Of a DNA stretch of 33,919 bases, positions 16,187 through 20,847 are shown one piece after another (position 1 is the stretch's first letter; each line of letters starts with the position of its first letter). This DNA comes from Candidatus Altarchaeum sp. (lineage in GTDB: Archaea; Altiarchaeota; Altiarchaeia; Altiarchaeales; Altiarchaeaceae). Location of the stretch: contig JAGWDQ010000100.1 in assembly GCA_018260615.1 (NCBI GenBank), positions 1 to 33,919 of the forward strand. Reading direction: 5' to 3'. The position numbers and the translations under genes were made by a program. The notes beneath the pieces are model-generated. The model made no database searches. It saw only the letters and a program-made list of their open reading frames with translations, and had not been told where the DNA came from.

Positions 16187-17335
16187 TTAAATCAACGGTT
16201 TCATCCTGTCGGCAAGCTTTTTTAATACCTCCGGCTTTGTTGTGTATTCCATTTCATCCGATGCCAATGTTCCGGGCATAAACGGACCATGTCCCCTCAT
16301 ATATCTTGATATATTCATTGACTGCCTTCTTGTTACATCCCATACGGAACCCTCAAAATAATCTAACGGTATATGCTCACCTATTGCACTTTCACCTTTT
16401 TCAGGATCTTCCAGGCCTACGATTGTTCCGTCACAAATCTGAAATCCGATTGCACATACTCGCGGAGGTCCGTCAAAATATGTCGGACTGGAATCCGCTA
16501 CACTGCAGGGATAGAATGCTCCGTAATGACTTCCCCTCATCCATCCCGCAACCAATTGCGGAAATGCAAACGGCTGTAAAATTTCTCCAATCGCAGGCAA
16601 ACCGGACTGTGCTCTTACTATTGCAACAGGGTCATCCTTGCCAACATAATGTCCAGCGGATACATTTAATTTATCTGTGCTTACAACTGCCGCAACTCCG
16701 ATTTTTTCATCCTTGCACCAGATCCTTTTTATTGCATATCTGTAAGTATCGCTAATTAATGACAATGCCTCGTAGGACTCTTCAGGTGTGCTTAATGTGA
16801 TACCCTTATGGCTTATAACATCCTGTATTTCAAAATTAAATCCCAGCTGCATTCTTGCATCAATCACCAGGCCGGTTGTTGTAAACGGATCCATAAAAAT
16901 TTTTGATAATGGCAAACTATATGCCGAGGGTTCTGTTTTATCTGCCATGAAGAAAACTGTTGGCTCTGACTTTCTTTCTTCAAATTCCATCTCTGCTGCA
17001 CCCGGACCCATTCCCTTTACATTTCCGGAGAATGCATCGCTCAATAAGTCCTGTCCCGCTCCGTATAAATGATATTTCTTTGCAAATTCGGTTGCCTTTA
17101 GAAAAGCACTCCATGCTAATTTGTGTATATCTTTATTATTTTCTCCTTTGTCATGCGTCATTATTAACTGCATATCATCTCCGACCCTTGTAACATAAAA
17201 GTCCTTTATTGTTTTATTTTTAACACCTTCTTTTAAAATCCTTCTGCATGCCTCAAGCATTCTCGGATGTGGTATGCTGTGTCCCGCCACCGAACCGACA
17301 TCCGCCTTAATTAAACTTATTGTTGTTTTTACCAT
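16187..17335 (-). CDS. fbp: Bifunctional fructose-1,6-bisphosphate aldolase/phosphatase (class V FBPase)
   Basis: IKADVG, GDD, YGAGQDLL, DKTEP, YVGKDDP (Schiff-base Lys), GWMRGSH, HGPF. Confidence 0.97.
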   Translation of the reverse strand: MVKTTISLIKADVGSVAGHSIPHPRMLEACRRILKEGVKNKTIKDFYVTRVGDDMQLIMTHDKGENNKDIHKLAWSAFLKATEFAKKYHLYGAGQDLLSDAFSGNVKGMGPGAAEMEFEERKSEPTVFFMADKTEPSAYSLPLSKIFMDPFTTTGLVIDARMQLGFNFEIQDVISHKGITLSTPEESYEALSLISDTYRYAIKRIWCKDEKIGVAAVVSTDKLNVSAGHYVGKDDPVAIVRAQSGLPAIGEILQPFAFPQLVAGWMRGSHYGAFYPCSVADSSPTYFDGPPRVCAIGFQICDGTIVGLEDPEKGESAIGEHIPLDYFEGSVWDVTRRQSMNISRYMRGHGPFMPGTLASDEMEYTTKPEVLKKLADRMKPLI

Positions 17336-17395: not shown

Positions 17396-17665
17396 CTATT
17401 TGTCAAATTCCTCTGCTGTAATTGCCGGAAGTGTTCTAAATCCGATTCCTGTTGCTTTTGAAATTTTTACGGATGCTTTCATTGCTTCTGTATTTCCAGG
17501 GAAATCCACGATAAAGCACAAATCATAATTTCCAAGTGTTGCATACATAGCATCAACTTTTCCTCCTTTCTTCTTAATTTCATCAACAACTGTTTTTGTC
17601 CTTTCTTTAGAAACCCCCTTAATCCCTTCTACACTATACCTTCCTAACATGACATACTTTCCCAT
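17396..17665 (-). CDS. GYD-domain protein
   Basis: 89 aa; YATLGNYD variant of the GxYD motif. Confidence 0.85.
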   Translation of the reverse strand: MGKYVMLGRYSVEGIKGVSKERTKTVVDEIKKKGGKVDAMYATLGNYDLCFIVDFPGNTEAMKASVKISKATGIGFRTLPAITAEEFDK

Positions 17666-17803: not shown

Positions 17804-17937
17804 GATTGAAAATCTTATAGATTTTCAGTAATTTTGTTAACCTCTGAATAGTTACAAATTAAATTTAAATTTTGTAATCTAATTAGTATTGTATAAAAAT
17901 AAAGATAAAAACATGTATAAACCATAATAAAAATATA

Positions 17938-18672
17938 ATGACTATGTCTCTTCCCGATGCCCTTGTAGGAGCGTTAAAATATATAAAGAAATTTAAAGGA
18001 AAAATTTTTGTAATATTTGCCGGCAAAAATGCCTTTTTGAGCGGAGAAATAATGAGTGAAATTGCCTGTGATATTGCACTCCTGAAACATGTCGGAATAA
18101 ATGTTGTTGTAGTTCACGAAATTCCTGATAATGCCGACTATTTCGGAGAGGATAAAATTTTCATATCCGAATTTGCCAATAAAGACAATAACATTAAGGA
18201 TATAGGAACATTGAGCATTGCGGGAAAAATTTCCCTGAAATTTGTTTCATGTATCGCAAAACAGGACATAGTTGCAATCTCGCTCGTCGGAAAACAGGAA
18301 TCAAATTTGCTCAATTTATTAACATCCGGGGATTACATTCCGCTCATCTCGCCGGTTTTTGTGCCTGACCAGTTTATGTTTGCAGCAGAATTCGCATCCT
18401 CCCTGAATGCGGAAAAATTTATAATAATGTCGGAAGAAGAAGGAATTTTGGATGCCGATGAAGAATTAATTCCGTCTATAAATTTAAAACGGCTAAAACA
18501 ACTGACAGATGAAGGAATTATAACTGAAAATCTGCTCAAGCCGCTCGATGCGTGTAAATTTGCAATAAATAACGGAGTAAATAAAGTGCATCTTATAAAA
18601 GCAGACAAACACAAATTAATAGGGGAAATTTTTACAGATGAAGGGGTCGGGACGATTATTACAAAGGATTAA
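17938..18672 (+). CDS. Acetylglutamate-kinase (ArgB/AAK-fold) homolog, probably catalytically inactive
   Basis: ALKYIKKFKGK N-helix and EIFTDEGVGT C-terminal motif are present; KxGG, HGGG, NINAD and GGMxPK are absent. Confidence 0.8.
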   Translation: MTMSLPDALVGALKYIKKFKGKIFVIFAGKNAFLSGEIMSEIACDIALLKHVGINVVVVHEIPDNADYFGEDKIFISEFANKDNNIKDIGTLSIAGKISLKFVSCIAKQDIVAISLVGKQESNLLNLLTSGDYIPLISPVFVPDQFMFAAEFASSLNAEKFIIMSEEEGILDADEELIPSINLKRLKQLTDEGIITENLLKPLDACKFAINNGVNKVHLIKADKHKLIGEIFTDEGVGTIITKD

Positions 18673-19383: not shown

Positions 19384-20847
19384 CTAAATTTTTGTCAAAA
19401 GGCCATATATTTTTTTATTTTTTGGTTTGCATGTTGGCTGGTTATTATTCGTTCTGATGACAGAATATAATCTATCGTCCTTATGTGCAGATGCGTCTAT
19501 TATCATTATATCTTCTAAATTTTCTTCTTTACCTCTTATTTTAGAGTAAAATTCCACATACCAGACATAGTGTGGAAAAGAGACATTTTTATAATCTTCG
19601 GTTTCTAACTCGTATTCCAGGAATTTATGTAAGTTCCTTGAATCTGTTAATATCTTTCTTGCAACAACATTTTGATTTTTTGCAGACATAGCACTATTAA
19701 CCACTTCTTTAGCAAGGTTTTCCGCACTTTCAAAGGGAAAATAAAATCTTTCAAATATAGGACATATAAGAACGACATTCCAGCTTATTAATTTCTGCAG
19801 CAGTTTCTCTTTTGGGACAACGATGCTAAATAGGGGTGAAGCATATTTCTTTTCTGTGGCATTCCGGATGTTGTAGAAGGTGTTTTTTGTATGATATCCG
19901 GAATCATCAAAGAGCACATATCCAAATTTAGATTCTCCATTTTCATCTATAATAATTGTGTGTCCTGCAATCACAACAACATGATTGTCAAATCCCAATA
20001 TACACGGGAGGCCGCTTTCTATATGTGCTTCAAGTATTTCTAATAATTTGTCCTTTCCTTCATCTTTACTCGCGTATGTTCTCACAAAACATCCGTTCTC
20101 TGTTAGAGCACTCGCAAGATGTTCAATATCCAAGCCATTTGATGGGATTTCTCTTCCTTTATCCGAATATGGAATTTTTGAAATAAATTTTTCTATGGAT
20201 ATTTTGCTCATTTTATGCCTTTTATGCATAATTTCTGCCACCATTATTGCATCTGCATGGGCGCAGGCAGAAATTACAGAGTCCTGTGAAAACAAGGGAA
20301 ATGTTTCAAATTTTATACTTTTACTTCCTATATGAACTTCATATTCTGCTGTAATCATATATAAATGCTGACTTTCTGTTAAGTTATAAAATTTTCTATA
20401 TTGTTTTAGAACAATCTTTGAAATAAAACTTGCAGGTAAAGGTCTTATAGTGACATATCCCAAATAAGAGGAATCATTATCCCAGACATCTTCTAGATTT
20501 TCTATATTCTCGTCAAAAAAGTGAATTCTGTATACAAATGGTGTTGTTTGAGCATAATTTGTCTTACAATAATGCAATGAGTATAATTCTCTCCATTCTC
20601 TTTCTACATAAGGATACTCAATAATAAATGTTGTAACTTCTTCAAGAAACTTTCCAAATCTTTTCCTTAATTCTGAGACAATATTTCCTGCAGTTAATGT
20701 ATCTTTATATACAAATTCTATCTTGAGATTATCTTCAAGTTCATTAATTGTATGCGAAATCAAAAATTTTACATGACTCATTTTATAGTAATTCAACCAT
20801 ATTAAATAATTAGTGTTCATATAAAATATGTTATCTGGCAAATTCAT
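19384..20847 (-). CDS. Hypothetical protein with a papain-like (C39-like) Cys-His-Asp signature; start may be 20781
   Basis: FSQD...SACAHA, GLPCILGFDNHVVVIAGH, LFDDSG. Confidence 0.65.
   Translation of the reverse strand: MNLPDNIFYMNTNYLIWLNYYKMSHVKFLISHTINELEDNLKIEFVYKDTLTAGNIVSELRKRFGKFLEEVTTFIIEYPYVEREWRELYSLHYCKTNYAQTTPFVYRIHFFDENIENLEDVWDNDSSYLGYVTIRPLPASFISKIVLKQYRKFYNLTESQHLYMITAEYEVHIGSKSIKFETFPLFSQDSVISACAHADAIMVAEIMHKRHKMSKISIEKFISKIPYSDKGREIPSNGLDIEHLASALTENGCFVRTYASKDEGKDKLLEILEAHIESGLPCILGFDNHVVVIAGHTIIIDENGESKFGYVLFDDSGYHTKNTFYNIRNATEKKYASPLFSIVVPKEKLLQKLISWNVVLICPIFERFYFPFESAENLAKEVVNSAMSAKNQNVVARKILTDSRNLHKFLEYELETEDYKNVSFPHYVWYVEFYSKIRGKEENLEDIMIIDASAHKDDRLYSVIRTNNNQPTCKPKNKKIYGLLTKI

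What the first reader, a model, noticed from the sequence alone, without database searches (positions are those of the whole stretch)
17938..18672. ArgB pseudo-kinase that keeps only the arginine-sensing elements
Seen: the catalytic KxGG is replaced by FAGK, HGGG by HEIP and GGMxPK by ENLLKP, and NINAD is missing. The N-helix ALKYIKKFKGK and the C-terminal EIFTDEGVGT are retained, and the frame is intact. Known: in arginine-inhibited hexameric NAGKs and the AAK domain of NAGS these two retained elements form the arginine site and the oligomer interface. Inference: a stand-alone arginine-sensor or scaffold protein, possibly regulating a partner NAGK, NAGS or PII protein.
Basis: partly seen in the sequence, partly recalled or inferred. 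Interest (0 to 1): 0.75.

Follow-up and report, generated by a model that had tools for sequence, protein, structure and literature searches.

The report
Dead ArgB paralog keeping the arginine site
An uncultivated archaeon (Candidatus Altiarchaeum) keeps, next to its working acetylglutamate kinase, a second copy that has lost its catalytic residues but preserves the arginine-binding pocket under strong selection, so it most likely acts as a non-enzymatic arginine sensor or scaffold whose partner is unknown.

Summary
ORF 17938-18672(+) encodes a 244-aa (242 aa from the ATG at 17944) amino-acid-kinase-fold protein. Its closest solved relatives are the arginine-inhibited hexameric NAGKs.

- **Lost:** the catalytic Lys and Gly loop (FAGK), HGGG (HEIP), NINAD (deleted), GGMxPK (ENLLKP), and about 35 residues of the N-acetylglutamate lid.
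- **Kept:** every published arginine-site feature, namely the N-helix Tyr15, the Lys of AEK (K160 = TmNAGK K196) and E-I-F-T-x-x-G-x-G-T (230-239).
- **Orthologs:** found only in Altiarchaeaceae, down to 49% identity, and all share the same losses.
- **Selection:** dN/dS is 0.13-0.22, the same as the canonical argB of the same genus (0.09-0.24).
- **Conservation:** it is concentrated in the N-helix, an acidic hairpin (166-182) and the arginine loop. The former catalytic loops vary freely and even carry in-frame repeat expansions.
- **Genome:** it has a canonical argB, a bifunctional argJ and a glnK. No ArgA-type acetyltransferase was found.

Arginine binding, oligomeric state and partner remain untested. 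The only context clue is a conserved divergent pairing with the fructose-1,6-bisphosphate aldolase/phosphatase gene. I found no description of such a stand-alone protein in the literature.

The parts
17938..18672 (+). CDS of the stand-alone pseudo-NAGK. It is 244 aa from the ATG at 17938 and 242 aa if translation starts at the ATG at 17944, as the database cluster P0001 and most orthologs suggest.
17950..17994 (+). N-terminal helix, residues 5-19 (LPDALVGALKYIKKF), containing Tyr15. It is equivalent to the N-helix of arginine-sensitive NAGK and NAGS, which forms part of the arginine site and of the interdimer junction. 67% of its positions are invariant across the clade.
18016..18027 (+). Former K-x-G-G phosphate loop, now F-A-G-K. 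The catalytic Lys (EcNAGK K8) becomes Phe or Ala, and the second Gly (G11) becomes Lys or Trp.
18115..18126 (+). Former H-G-G-G loop, now H-E-I-P. In the deep subclade it reads HEVD, HETN or HDVD. No position after the His is invariant.
18178..18186 (+). Loop between helix B and helix C, residues 81-83, where the G-x-R N-acetylglutamate-binding hairpin used to be. Orthologs carry in-frame low-complexity insertions and tandem repeats here (NKEHNEDNKA units in G003, P0006-P0008).
18289..18300 (+). Junction of the roughly 35-residue deletion that removes the N-lobe hairpin covering the N-acetylglutamate site.
18352..18369 (+). Position of the deleted N-I-N-A-D motif (EcNAGK N158 and D162).
18409..18417 (+). 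A-E-K with Lys160. It equals TmNAGK K196 and, by position, ngNAGS K201, the key arginine-binding lysine of the central sheet. It is invariant in every aligned sequence.
18433..18483 (+). Acidic beta-hairpin, residues 166-182 (EEEGILDADEELIPSIN). 65% of its positions are invariant in the clade. The acidic character is specific to the pseudo-clade.
18526..18543 (+). Former G-G-M-x-P-K, now E-N-L-L-K-P. Both glycines are lost and the catalytic Lys (EcNAGK K217) position is occupied by Pro or Ile.
18625..18654 (+). Arginine-site signature E-I-F-T-D-E-G-V-G-T, residues 230-239. It matches the published motif E-(L/I)-(F/M)-(T/S)-x-x-G-x-G-T. 75-86% of positions are invariant in helix H, the loop and the last strand.
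16187..17335 (-). Fructose-1,6-bisphosphate aldolase/phosphatase gene (PF01950), divergently transcribed. This pairing is conserved in most orthologous loci, including those at 49-52% identity.
17396..17665 (-). GYD-domain gene lying between the FBP aldolase/phosphatase gene and the pseudo-NAGK gene in this genome and in some relatives. It is absent from that position in others.

Best explanation
The gene encodes a catalytically dead, stand-alone paralog of the arginine-inhibited type of N-acetylglutamate kinase. It keeps the AAK fold but has lost the residues that bind ATP phosphates and N-acetylglutamate.

[quoted passage not shown] In NAGK and in the AAK domain of NAGS, this is the allosteric arginine pocket and the junction between dimers.

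**Proposed mechanism.** This is inferred by analogy with the inactive AAK domain of classical NAGS, which binds arginine and forms a hexamer when expressed alone. The protein would bind L-arginine between Tyr15 of the N-helix, Lys160 and the E230-T239 loop. It would assemble through its N-helix, with itself or with ArgB dimers. It would then pass the arginine-dependent conformational change to a partner, acting as a regulatory or scaffold subunit rather than as an enzyme.

**Shown:**
- loss of the catalytic residues
- retention of the arginine-site residues
- purifying selection
- restriction to one lineage
- coexistence with an intact argB and argJ

**Inferred:**
- arginine binding
- oligomerisation
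- the identity of the partner. ArgB is the most natural candidate because, in an ArgJ-cycle organism, ArgB is the arginine-controlled step.
For: **Family and fold**
- The fold and nearest relatives are arginine-sensitive NAGKs: 2buf E=1.6e-25 and 2bty 1.2e-22, against arginine-insensitive EcNAGK 1gs5 at only 1.9e-5.
- The AF2 model has pLDDT 89.5 and Foldseek TM 0.83-0.88 to 2v5h, 2bty and 2buf, and 0.84 to ngNAGS 2r8v.

**Catalytic residues lost**
- The residues listed as essential in PMC3329491 and PMC3236213 (EcNAGK K8, G11, G44/45, R66, N158, D162, G213, K217) are all substituted or deleted.

**Arginine site kept**
- The features defined in PMC4490483 and PMC3236213 are all present: the motif E-(L/I)-(F/M)-(T/S)-x-x-G-x-G-T, the key Lys of the central sheet (K160 = TmNAGK K196), the key Glu of the last helix (E230) and the N-helix Tyr (Y15).
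- Y15, K160, E230, G236, G238 and T239 are invariant even when canonical NAGKs are included in the alignment.

**Conservation pattern within the clade**
- N-helix 67% invariant, hairpin 166-182 65%, helix H, arginine loop and last strand 75-86%.
- Former catalytic loops 0-14% invariant; N-lobe 16% overall.

**Selection**
- dN/dS is 0.13-0.22 in four pairs, with bootstrap 95% upper bounds of 0.20-0.32.
- Canonical argB of the same genus gives 0.09-0.24.
- The two deep subclades (about 50% identity, dS saturated) share the same deletions, so inactivation is old.

**Genome**
- A canonical ArgB (TIGR00761, 195 bits against a cut-off of 151) and a bifunctional ArgJ (390 bits against 351) are present.

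**Precedent**
Against: - No direct evidence exists for arginine binding, oligomerisation or any partner.
- The N-lobe, which carries the canonical AAK dimer interface, is the least conserved part and has lost about 35 residues. A NAGK-like dimer or hexamer is therefore not guaranteed.
- Gene context gives no arginine-pathway partner. The gene is monocistronic and pairs with a gluconeogenic gene, not with arg genes.
- The phylogenetic origin is unresolved because of a long branch.
- The clade is narrow, essentially one archaeal family, so the role may be a lineage-specific detail.
Confidence: 0.62

Rival explanations
1. The protein is a non-catalytic structural or regulatory protein whose conserved pocket binds a ligand other than arginine, or no ligand at all. 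The conserved N-helix, hairpin and C-terminal surface would serve only as a protein-protein interface, for example with the product of the divergently transcribed FBP aldolase/phosphatase gene.
For: - The acidic hairpin 166-182 is as conserved as the arginine loop but is specific to this clade. This suggests a newly evolved interaction surface.
- The divergent pairing with the FBP aldolase/phosphatase gene is kept in loci at 49-52% protein identity, while the downstream flank of the pseudo-NAGK gene differs between the two subclades.
Against: - Every residue class that defines the arginine site is retained exactly, including the Lys and Glu that hold the ligand rather than a partner protein.
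- The synteny is broken in some loci (L042, L045) and interrupted by a GYD gene in others.
- No known link exists between AAK proteins and FBP aldolase/phosphatase.
Confidence: 0.2
2. The protein is the arginine-sensing half of a split N-acetylglutamate synthase. It would work in trans with a separately encoded small GNAT acetyltransferase, or with ArgJ, as the fused AAK domain does in classical ArgA.
For: - The best NCBIfam hit of the C-lobe is the ArgA model (NF003641, 80 bits).
- The review PMC4490483 notes that short NAGS forms may have unidentified protein partners.
- A 140-aa GNAT on G000:C126 gives faint hits to short-NAGS models (E about 1e-4).
Against: - The ArgA hit is far below its cut-off (80 against 344), and canonical ArgB hits the same model better (121 bits).
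- No NAT domain of either NAGS type was found in the genome. The genome is 87% complete.
- The GNAT hits are 20-22 bits against cut-offs of 154-180.
- ArgJ scores as the bifunctional type, so no extra NAGS is needed.
- No fused pseudo-AAK-NAT form exists among 1.84 billion representatives.
Confidence: 0.08
3. The protein is still an enzyme: a kinase or other transferase with a rebuilt active site and a new substrate.
For: The fold is intact and confidently predicted. A Lys (K201) is nearly invariant one position before the old catalytic Lys.
Against: - All phosphate-binding glycine loops, both catalytic lysines and the organising Asp are lost.
- The former active-site loops have 0-14% invariant positions and differ between subclades.
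- The lid region tolerates repeat expansions.
- No alternative conserved polar cluster appears in the cleft.
Confidence: 0.05
4. The gene is a decaying pseudogene or an annotation artefact with no function.
For: It has lost every catalytic motif, and a functional argB exists elsewhere in the genome.
Against: - The frame is intact in all orthologs from several sites and genomes.
- dN/dS is 0.13-0.22, equal to that of the active paralog.
- 61 positions are invariant across sequences that differ by 50%.
Confidence: 0.02

Closest known systems
Arginine-inhibited hexameric N-acetylglutamate kinase (ArgB; T. maritima 2bty, P. aeruginosa 2buf, S. elongatus 2v5h)
   Same: The AAK fold is the same (TM 0.83-0.88). 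So are the N-terminal helix with the conserved Tyr, the AEK lysine and the E-I-F-T-x-x-G-x-G-T arginine loop. These are the best sequence hits in the PDB.
   Different: It lacks both catalytic lysines, all the Gly-rich phosphate loops, NINAD and the N-acetylglutamate-binding Arg and lid. It is about 45 residues shorter. It scores 60.6 bits against the TIGR00761 cut-off of 151.3. It cannot be a NAG kinase.
AAK domain of classical N-acetylglutamate synthase (ArgA; N. gonorrhoeae 2r8v/3d2p, P. aeruginosa NAGS)
   Same: This is a kinase-dead AAK module whose job is to bind arginine and to build the oligomeric scaffold. The isolated domain forms hexamers (PMC4490483). It is a structural match (TM 0.84). 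This is what the protein most probably works like.
   Different: In NAGS the AAK module is always fused to the catalytic NAT domain. Here it stands alone: 244 aa, no fused relatives, and no ArgA-type NAT was found in the genome. By sequence it is closer to ArgB than to ArgA.
Pseudoenzyme regulatory subunits derived from enzyme paralogs (for example HisZ, the dead HisRS paralog that confers histidine feedback on short ATP-phosphoribosyltransferase). Recalled from general knowledge.
   Same: A dead paralog is retained under selection because it keeps a ligand-binding or oligomerisation function.
   Different: The fold and pathway are unrelated. For HisZ the partner is known, whereas here it is not. 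This is an analogy only and was not tested.
NAGK as the PII target in cyanobacteria and plants (2v5h, 2rd5)
   Same: S. elongatus NAGK is the best structural hit and the best C-lobe sequence hit. The genome encodes one PII protein.
   Different: The PII gene is a glnK next to amt. The helix corresponding to the NAGK Arg233 contact (from memory of the 2v5h paper) has no invariant residue in the pseudo-clade. No PII-NAGK interaction is known in archaea.

Membership tests
Amino acid kinase (AAK) fold superfamily, PF00696 | Pfam model hit above the gathering score, and the open alpha/beta/alpha sandwich fold | tested here: met
   PF00696 scores 40.6 bits against a cut-off of 24.9, covering the C-half only. 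The AF2 model has pLDDT 89.5 and TM 0.88 to NAGK structures.
N-acetylglutamate kinase (ArgB, TIGR00761) | Score above the curated equivalog cut-off | tested here: not met
   60.6 bits against a cut-off of 151.3. The genome's real ArgB scores 195.3.
N-acetylglutamate kinase (ArgB) | Catalytic lysines (EcNAGK K8, K217) and the organising Asp (D162) | tested here: not met
   K8 becomes F27 (Ala in the deep subclade). The K217 position becomes P202 or Ile. D162 lies in the deleted NINAD motif.
N-acetylglutamate kinase (ArgB) | Glycine-rich phosphate-binding loops (G11, G44/G45, G213) | tested here: not met
   K-x-G-G becomes F-A-G-K, H-G-G-G becomes H-E-I-P, and G-G-M becomes E-N-L.
N-acetylglutamate kinase (ArgB) | N-acetylglutamate site (G64, R66, N158) and the lid hairpin | tested here: not met
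   G-x-R-x-T-D is replaced by S-E-F-A-N-K-D. N158 is deleted. About 35 residues of the lid are deleted.
Arginine-sensitive subclass of NAGK/NAGS AAK domains | Signature E-(L/I)-(F/M)-(T/S)-x-x-G-x-G-T at the C-terminal end | tested here: met
   E230-I-F-T-D-E-G-V-G-T239. It is invariant or nearly so across the clade.
Arginine-sensitive subclass of NAGK/NAGS AAK domains | Key lysine of the central sheet (TmNAGK K196, ngNAGS K201) and key glutamate of the last helix (ngNAGS E270) | tested here: met
   K160 aligns with TmNAGK K196 by residue count in the alignment. E230 is the first residue of the signature. Both are invariant.
Arginine-sensitive subclass of NAGK/NAGS AAK domains | N-terminal helix carrying the arginine-site aromatic residue (TmNAGK Tyr15, ngNAGS Tyr17) | tested here: met
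   Helix 5-19 is present in the AF2 model. Y15 is invariant in all alignments. The feature definition comes from PMC3236213.
Arginine-sensitive subclass of NAGK/NAGS AAK domains | Binding of L-arginine, and a hexameric ring of three dimers linked by interlaced N-helices | not testable with these tools
   No ligand docking is available. The single complex job gave no verdict.
Classical N-acetylglutamate synthase (ArgA, NF003641/TIGR01890) | Two-domain AAK + NAT architecture, and a score above the cut-off | tested here: not met
   The protein is 244 aa with no NAT domain. NF003641 scores 80 bits against a cut-off of 344. No fused relatives exist among 1.84e9 representatives.

The most novel reading that the evidence does not exclude
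The Altiarchaeum protein is one lineage of a recurrent, so far undescribed class of stand-alone 'pseudo-NAGK' arginine sensors. These would be dead ArgB paralogs that keep only the allosteric pocket and the N-helix, and that couple arginine (nitrogen) status in trans to another enzyme. Here that enzyme is possibly the divergently encoded FBP aldolase/phosphatase or ArgB/ArgJ. In an unrelated bacterial lineage it may be a pyrimidine operon. Among the 220 nearest NAGK-like representatives, nine further proteins have lost three or four catalytic motifs, and eight of these keep the arginine-site signature and its lysine by the script's test.
Probability: 0.3. Interest if true: 0.75.

Novelty: new variant of a known kind. 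Interest (0 to 1): 0.55.

Why it matters
Arginine feedback in microbes is known to act through the AAK module of ArgB, or through the dead AAK domain fused to NAGS. A free-standing dead AAK module has not been described in the papers I could search, especially one kept for a long time under the same constraint as the active enzyme, with selection focused on the allosteric pocket.

If it binds arginine, three things would follow:

- It would be a clean natural example of an enzyme turned into a small-molecule sensor.
- It would offer a minimal system for studying the NAGK/NAGS allosteric switch without catalysis.
- It would give a handle on nitrogen and carbon regulation in Altiarchaeum, an uncultivated autotroph that is abundant in the subsurface.

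Similar degenerate NAGK-like proteins occur in unrelated metagenomic lineages, which suggests the solution may have evolved more than once.

Tried and rejected
- **Complex prediction.** Four copies of the protein with alignment A2 gave no verdict: score 0.37 against a mark of 0.42, with runs of 0.37, 0.08 and 0.52. It is not used as evidence either way.
- **Origin of the clade.** Two maximum-likelihood trees place the pseudo-clade on a branch of about 1.06 changes per site. One attaches it at the split between altiarchaeal and other ArgBs; the other joins it to another long branch, with a long-branch warning. The origin is unresolved. The only hint is that the best-scoring canonical relative of the clade profile is an Altiarchaeales ArgB (P0111, 171 bits against 143 or less for all others).
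- **Ancestral-locus idea.** I asked whether the pseudo-gene sits where argB originally sat next to the FBP aldolase/phosphatase gene. No FBP aldolase/phosphatase gene lies within about 1.5 kb of canonical argB in 28 altiarchaeal loci. This is not supported.
- **Split-NAGS partner.** PF04768 found nothing, but the control genomes also gave nothing, so that search is uninformative. NF003641 matched only the AAK parts of the two ArgB paralogs. The three GNAT genes in the genome score far below any NAGS cut-off.
- **PII partner.** The single PII gene is a glnK next to amt, and the corresponding contact helix is not conserved.
- **Context of other degenerate NAGK-like proteins.** Searches showed no common neighbour.
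- **Earlier scan notes.** held nothing on this gene.
- **Upstream regions.** An alignment shows only AT-rich sequence, apart from one short shared A/T motif.

Full report
**1. The observation**

The window is low-GC archaeal DNA (about 0.28-0.39 G+C in 1-kb windows). ORF 17938..18672(+) is intact and encodes 244 aa. Orthologs begin at MSLPD, MTISLP or MILPD, so the start is the ATG at 17938 or the one at 17944.

Pfam recognises an AA_kinase domain only in the C-terminal half (40.6 bits, cut-off 24.9). NCBIfam models for ArgB and ArgA hit far below their cut-offs.

The best solved relatives are the arginine-inhibited hexameric NAGKs: P. aeruginosa 2buf at E=1.6e-25 and T. maritima 2bty at 1.2e-22. 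Arginine-insensitive E. coli NAGK scores only 1.9e-5.

- V-I-K-Y-G-G becomes V-I-F-A-G-K.
- H-G-G-G becomes H-E-I-P.
- G-G-M-x-P-K becomes E-N-L-L-K-P.
- N-I-N-A-D is deleted.

In addition, the G-x-R of the acetylglutamate site is gone, and about 35 residues of the N-lobe lid are missing. These positions correspond to the residues that two structural papers list as essential for NAGK catalysis and substrate binding: EcNAGK K8, G11, G44/45, G64, R66, N158, D162, G213 and K217 (PMC3329491; PMC3236213).

**2. What is retained**

The literature defines the arginine site of arginine-sensitive NAGK and of NAGS by four features (PMC3236213; PMC4490483):
- the signature E-(L/I)-(F/M)-(T/S)-x-x-G-x-G-T
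- a key glutamate of the last helix (ngNAGS E270)
- an aromatic residue of the N-terminal helix (TmNAGK Tyr15, ngNAGS Tyr17)

All four are present here:
- The signature is E230-I-F-T-D-E-G-V-G-T239.
- K160 sits in A-E-K and aligns with TmNAGK K196 by direct count.
- E230 is the first residue of the signature.
- Y15 lies in the helix ALKYIKKF.

Y15, K160, E230, G236, G238 and T239 stay invariant even when canonical NAGKs are added to the alignment.

An AlphaFold2 model built on alignment A1 is confident (pLDDT 89.5, pTM 0.88) and shows an N-helix at residues 5-19. Foldseek puts arginine-sensitive NAGKs first (TM 0.83-0.88), with the AAK domain of N. gonorrhoeae NAGS close behind at 0.84.

**3. 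Organism, paralogs and distribution**

Names attached to orthologs identify Candidatus Altarchaeum / Altarchaeaceae, as spelled in the database records.

The genome is 2.2 Mb in 148 contigs and 87% complete. It carries:
- a canonical ArgB with all motifs and its own N-helix on contig C87, scoring 195 bits on TIGR00761 against a cut-off of 151
- a bifunctional-type ArgJ (390 bits against 351)
- an aspartate kinase, a UMP kinase-like AAK protein and a 202-aa AAK protein
- one PII gene next to amt

No ArgA-type NAT domain was found, and the three GNAT genes score far below any NAGS cut-off. The organism therefore runs the ArgJ cycle, in which ArgB is the usual arginine-controlled step.

Among 61 species-representative genomes of the phylum, the dead paralog occurs only in the window's genus. 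It is in three of its four genomes, and the fourth is only 65% complete. All other families have just the canonical ArgB.

Metagenomes add orthologs down to 49% identity. A profile search of 1.84 billion representatives finds only two clusters of this clade. The next hit is a canonical ArgB of an Altiarchaeales archaeon (P0111, 171 bits), and ordinary NAGKs follow at 143 bits or less. No fused forms appear. The protein is therefore stand-alone and restricted to one lineage.

Trees do not resolve where the clade branches, because of its long stem.

**4. Is it decaying?**

No. All orthologs have open frames, the same substitutions of the catalytic motifs and the same deletions. This includes the deep subclade, whose synonymous sites are saturated relative to the window. 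The inactivation is therefore old.

| Comparison | dN/dS | Source |
|---|---|---|
| Pseudo-NAGK, four pairs | 0.13-0.22 (bootstrap 95% upper bounds 0.20-0.32) | |
| Canonical argB, same genus | 0.09-0.24 | |
| G000-G001, pseudo-gene | 0.218 | |
| G000-G001, argB | 0.184 | |

The dead copy is as constrained as the enzyme.

**5. Where the constraint lies**

Twelve representative sequences of the clade were compared.

| Region | Invariant positions |
|---|---|
| N-helix | 67% |
| Hairpin 166-182 (EEEGILDADEELIPSIN) | 65% |
| Helix H, arginine loop and last strand (226-242) | 75-86% |
| Former K-x-G-G, H-G-G-G, NINAD and G-G-M-x-P-K segments | 0-14% |
| Whole N-lobe | 16% |

The loop that replaced the acetylglutamate-binding hairpin even carries in-frame low-complexity insertions and a 30-nt tandem repeat in some orthologs.

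[quoted passage not shown] In NAGK and NAGS these form the arginine pocket and the junction between dimers. The acidic character of the hairpin is specific to this clade, and the N-helix is strongly basic (K14, K17, K18, K20, K22). A helix-hairpin contact is conceivable but was not tested.

**6. Mechanism proposed**

The closest functional analogue is the AAK domain of classical NAGS. It is a kinase-dead module that binds arginine and nucleates a hexameric ring. The isolated P. aeruginosa domain still forms hexamers, and arginine-induced ring changes depend on the AAK part alone (PMC4490483).

I therefore read the Altiarchaeum protein as a free-standing version of that module: an arginine-binding, probably oligomeric, non-catalytic regulator or scaffold.

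Its partner is unknown.
- **ArgB** is the most natural candidate because it has the same fold and the same type of N-helix, and is the controlled step in an ArgJ organism.
- **A split-NAGS arrangement** has no support.
- **PII** is unlikely, because the corresponding contact helix has no invariant residue.

The only recurring context signal is the divergent pairing with the fructose-1,6-bisphosphate aldolase/phosphatase gene. It is present in most loci, including those at 49-52% identity, while the downstream flank of the pseudo-NAGK gene differs between the two subclades. It is broken or interrupted in some loci. This may reflect co-regulation or plain synteny.

**7. Comparison with what is known, and novelty**

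The protein belongs to the AAK fold, and by descent to the arginine-sensitive NAGK lineage. It fails every catalytic criterion of ArgB and lacks the NAT domain that defines ArgA (see the membership table).

Full-text searches found no description of a stand-alone dead NAGK, nor any mention of acetylglutamate enzymes in Altiarchaeum. I rate it a new variant of a known kind: the known arginine-sensing AAK module as an independent protein.

In passing, nine further NAGK-like representatives among the 220 nearest have lost three or four catalytic motifs, and eight of the nine keep the arginine signature by the script's test. One is from a Lachnospiraceae MAG, and one heads a pyrC-pyrF-pyrK-pyrD-pyrE cluster. 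The phenomenon may therefore be recurrent. This set is biased, because it was retrieved with the pseudo-clade profile.

**8. Limits**

Arginine binding, oligomeric state and partner are inferred, not shown. The one complex-prediction job gave no verdict and is not used as evidence. The genome is incomplete, so absences hold only for the queries used.

Noticed in passing
P0246 (L061:5001-5789), P0219 (L064:5001-5786, L065:762-1547), also P0233, P0223, P0195, P0188, P0212, P0218, P0236: These are independent NAGK-like proteins from unrelated metagenomic lineages. They have lost three or four of the catalytic motifs. By the script's test all but P0195 keep the arginine signature and the AEK-position lysine, and all nine keep the N-helix aromatic residue (Phe in P0212). 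P0246 is from a Lachnospiraceae MAG. P0219 sits directly upstream of pyrC, pyrF, pyrK, pyrD and pyrE.
   Followed up: partly
L056:740-1000 (G003:C63, ortholog of the finding); same site in P0006-P0008: There is an in-frame 30-nt tandem repeat (NKEHNEDNKA units), interrupted by a scaffold gap. It lies in the loop that replaced the acetylglutamate-binding hairpin, so the former substrate site tolerates length variation.
   Followed up: partly
L053:1885-3051 (G000:C148): The ammonium transporter gene next to glnK is read as two ORFs (183 aa and 160 aa) covering the N- and C-terminal halves of Pfam Ammonium_transp. The cause could be a frameshift, a pseudogene or an assembly error.
   Followed up: no
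L008:9376-10590; G000:C96:2126-3334: A nickel-pincer-nucleotide-dependent ornithine cyclodeaminase (TIGR00300, 542 bits) lies about 2.6 kb downstream of the pseudo-NAGK in three related metagenome contigs. In this genome it is on another contig. It is an ornithine/arginine-related neighbour of uncertain relevance.
   Followed up: partly
window 17860-17880; L008 and L007 upstream regions: A short A/T motif (AAATTAAATTTAAA, followed by a run of T) lies about 65-80 nt upstream of the start codon. It is shared by the window, L008 and the 52%-identity ortholog L007. It may be part of the promoter shared with the FBP aldolase/phosphatase gene.
   Followed up: no
L002:1405-2277 (G000:C87) and L019: The canonical ArgB of this genus itself sits on a long branch (about 1.2 changes per site) within the altiarchaeal ArgBs. 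The cause could be general fast evolution of the genus or co-evolution with the dead paralog.
   Followed up: no
window 19384-20847 (-): A 487-aa ORF with no Pfam hit lies downstream of the finding. It is conserved at 87% identity in L041 but absent from that position in L008-L010, L013, L042 and L047.
   Followed up: no
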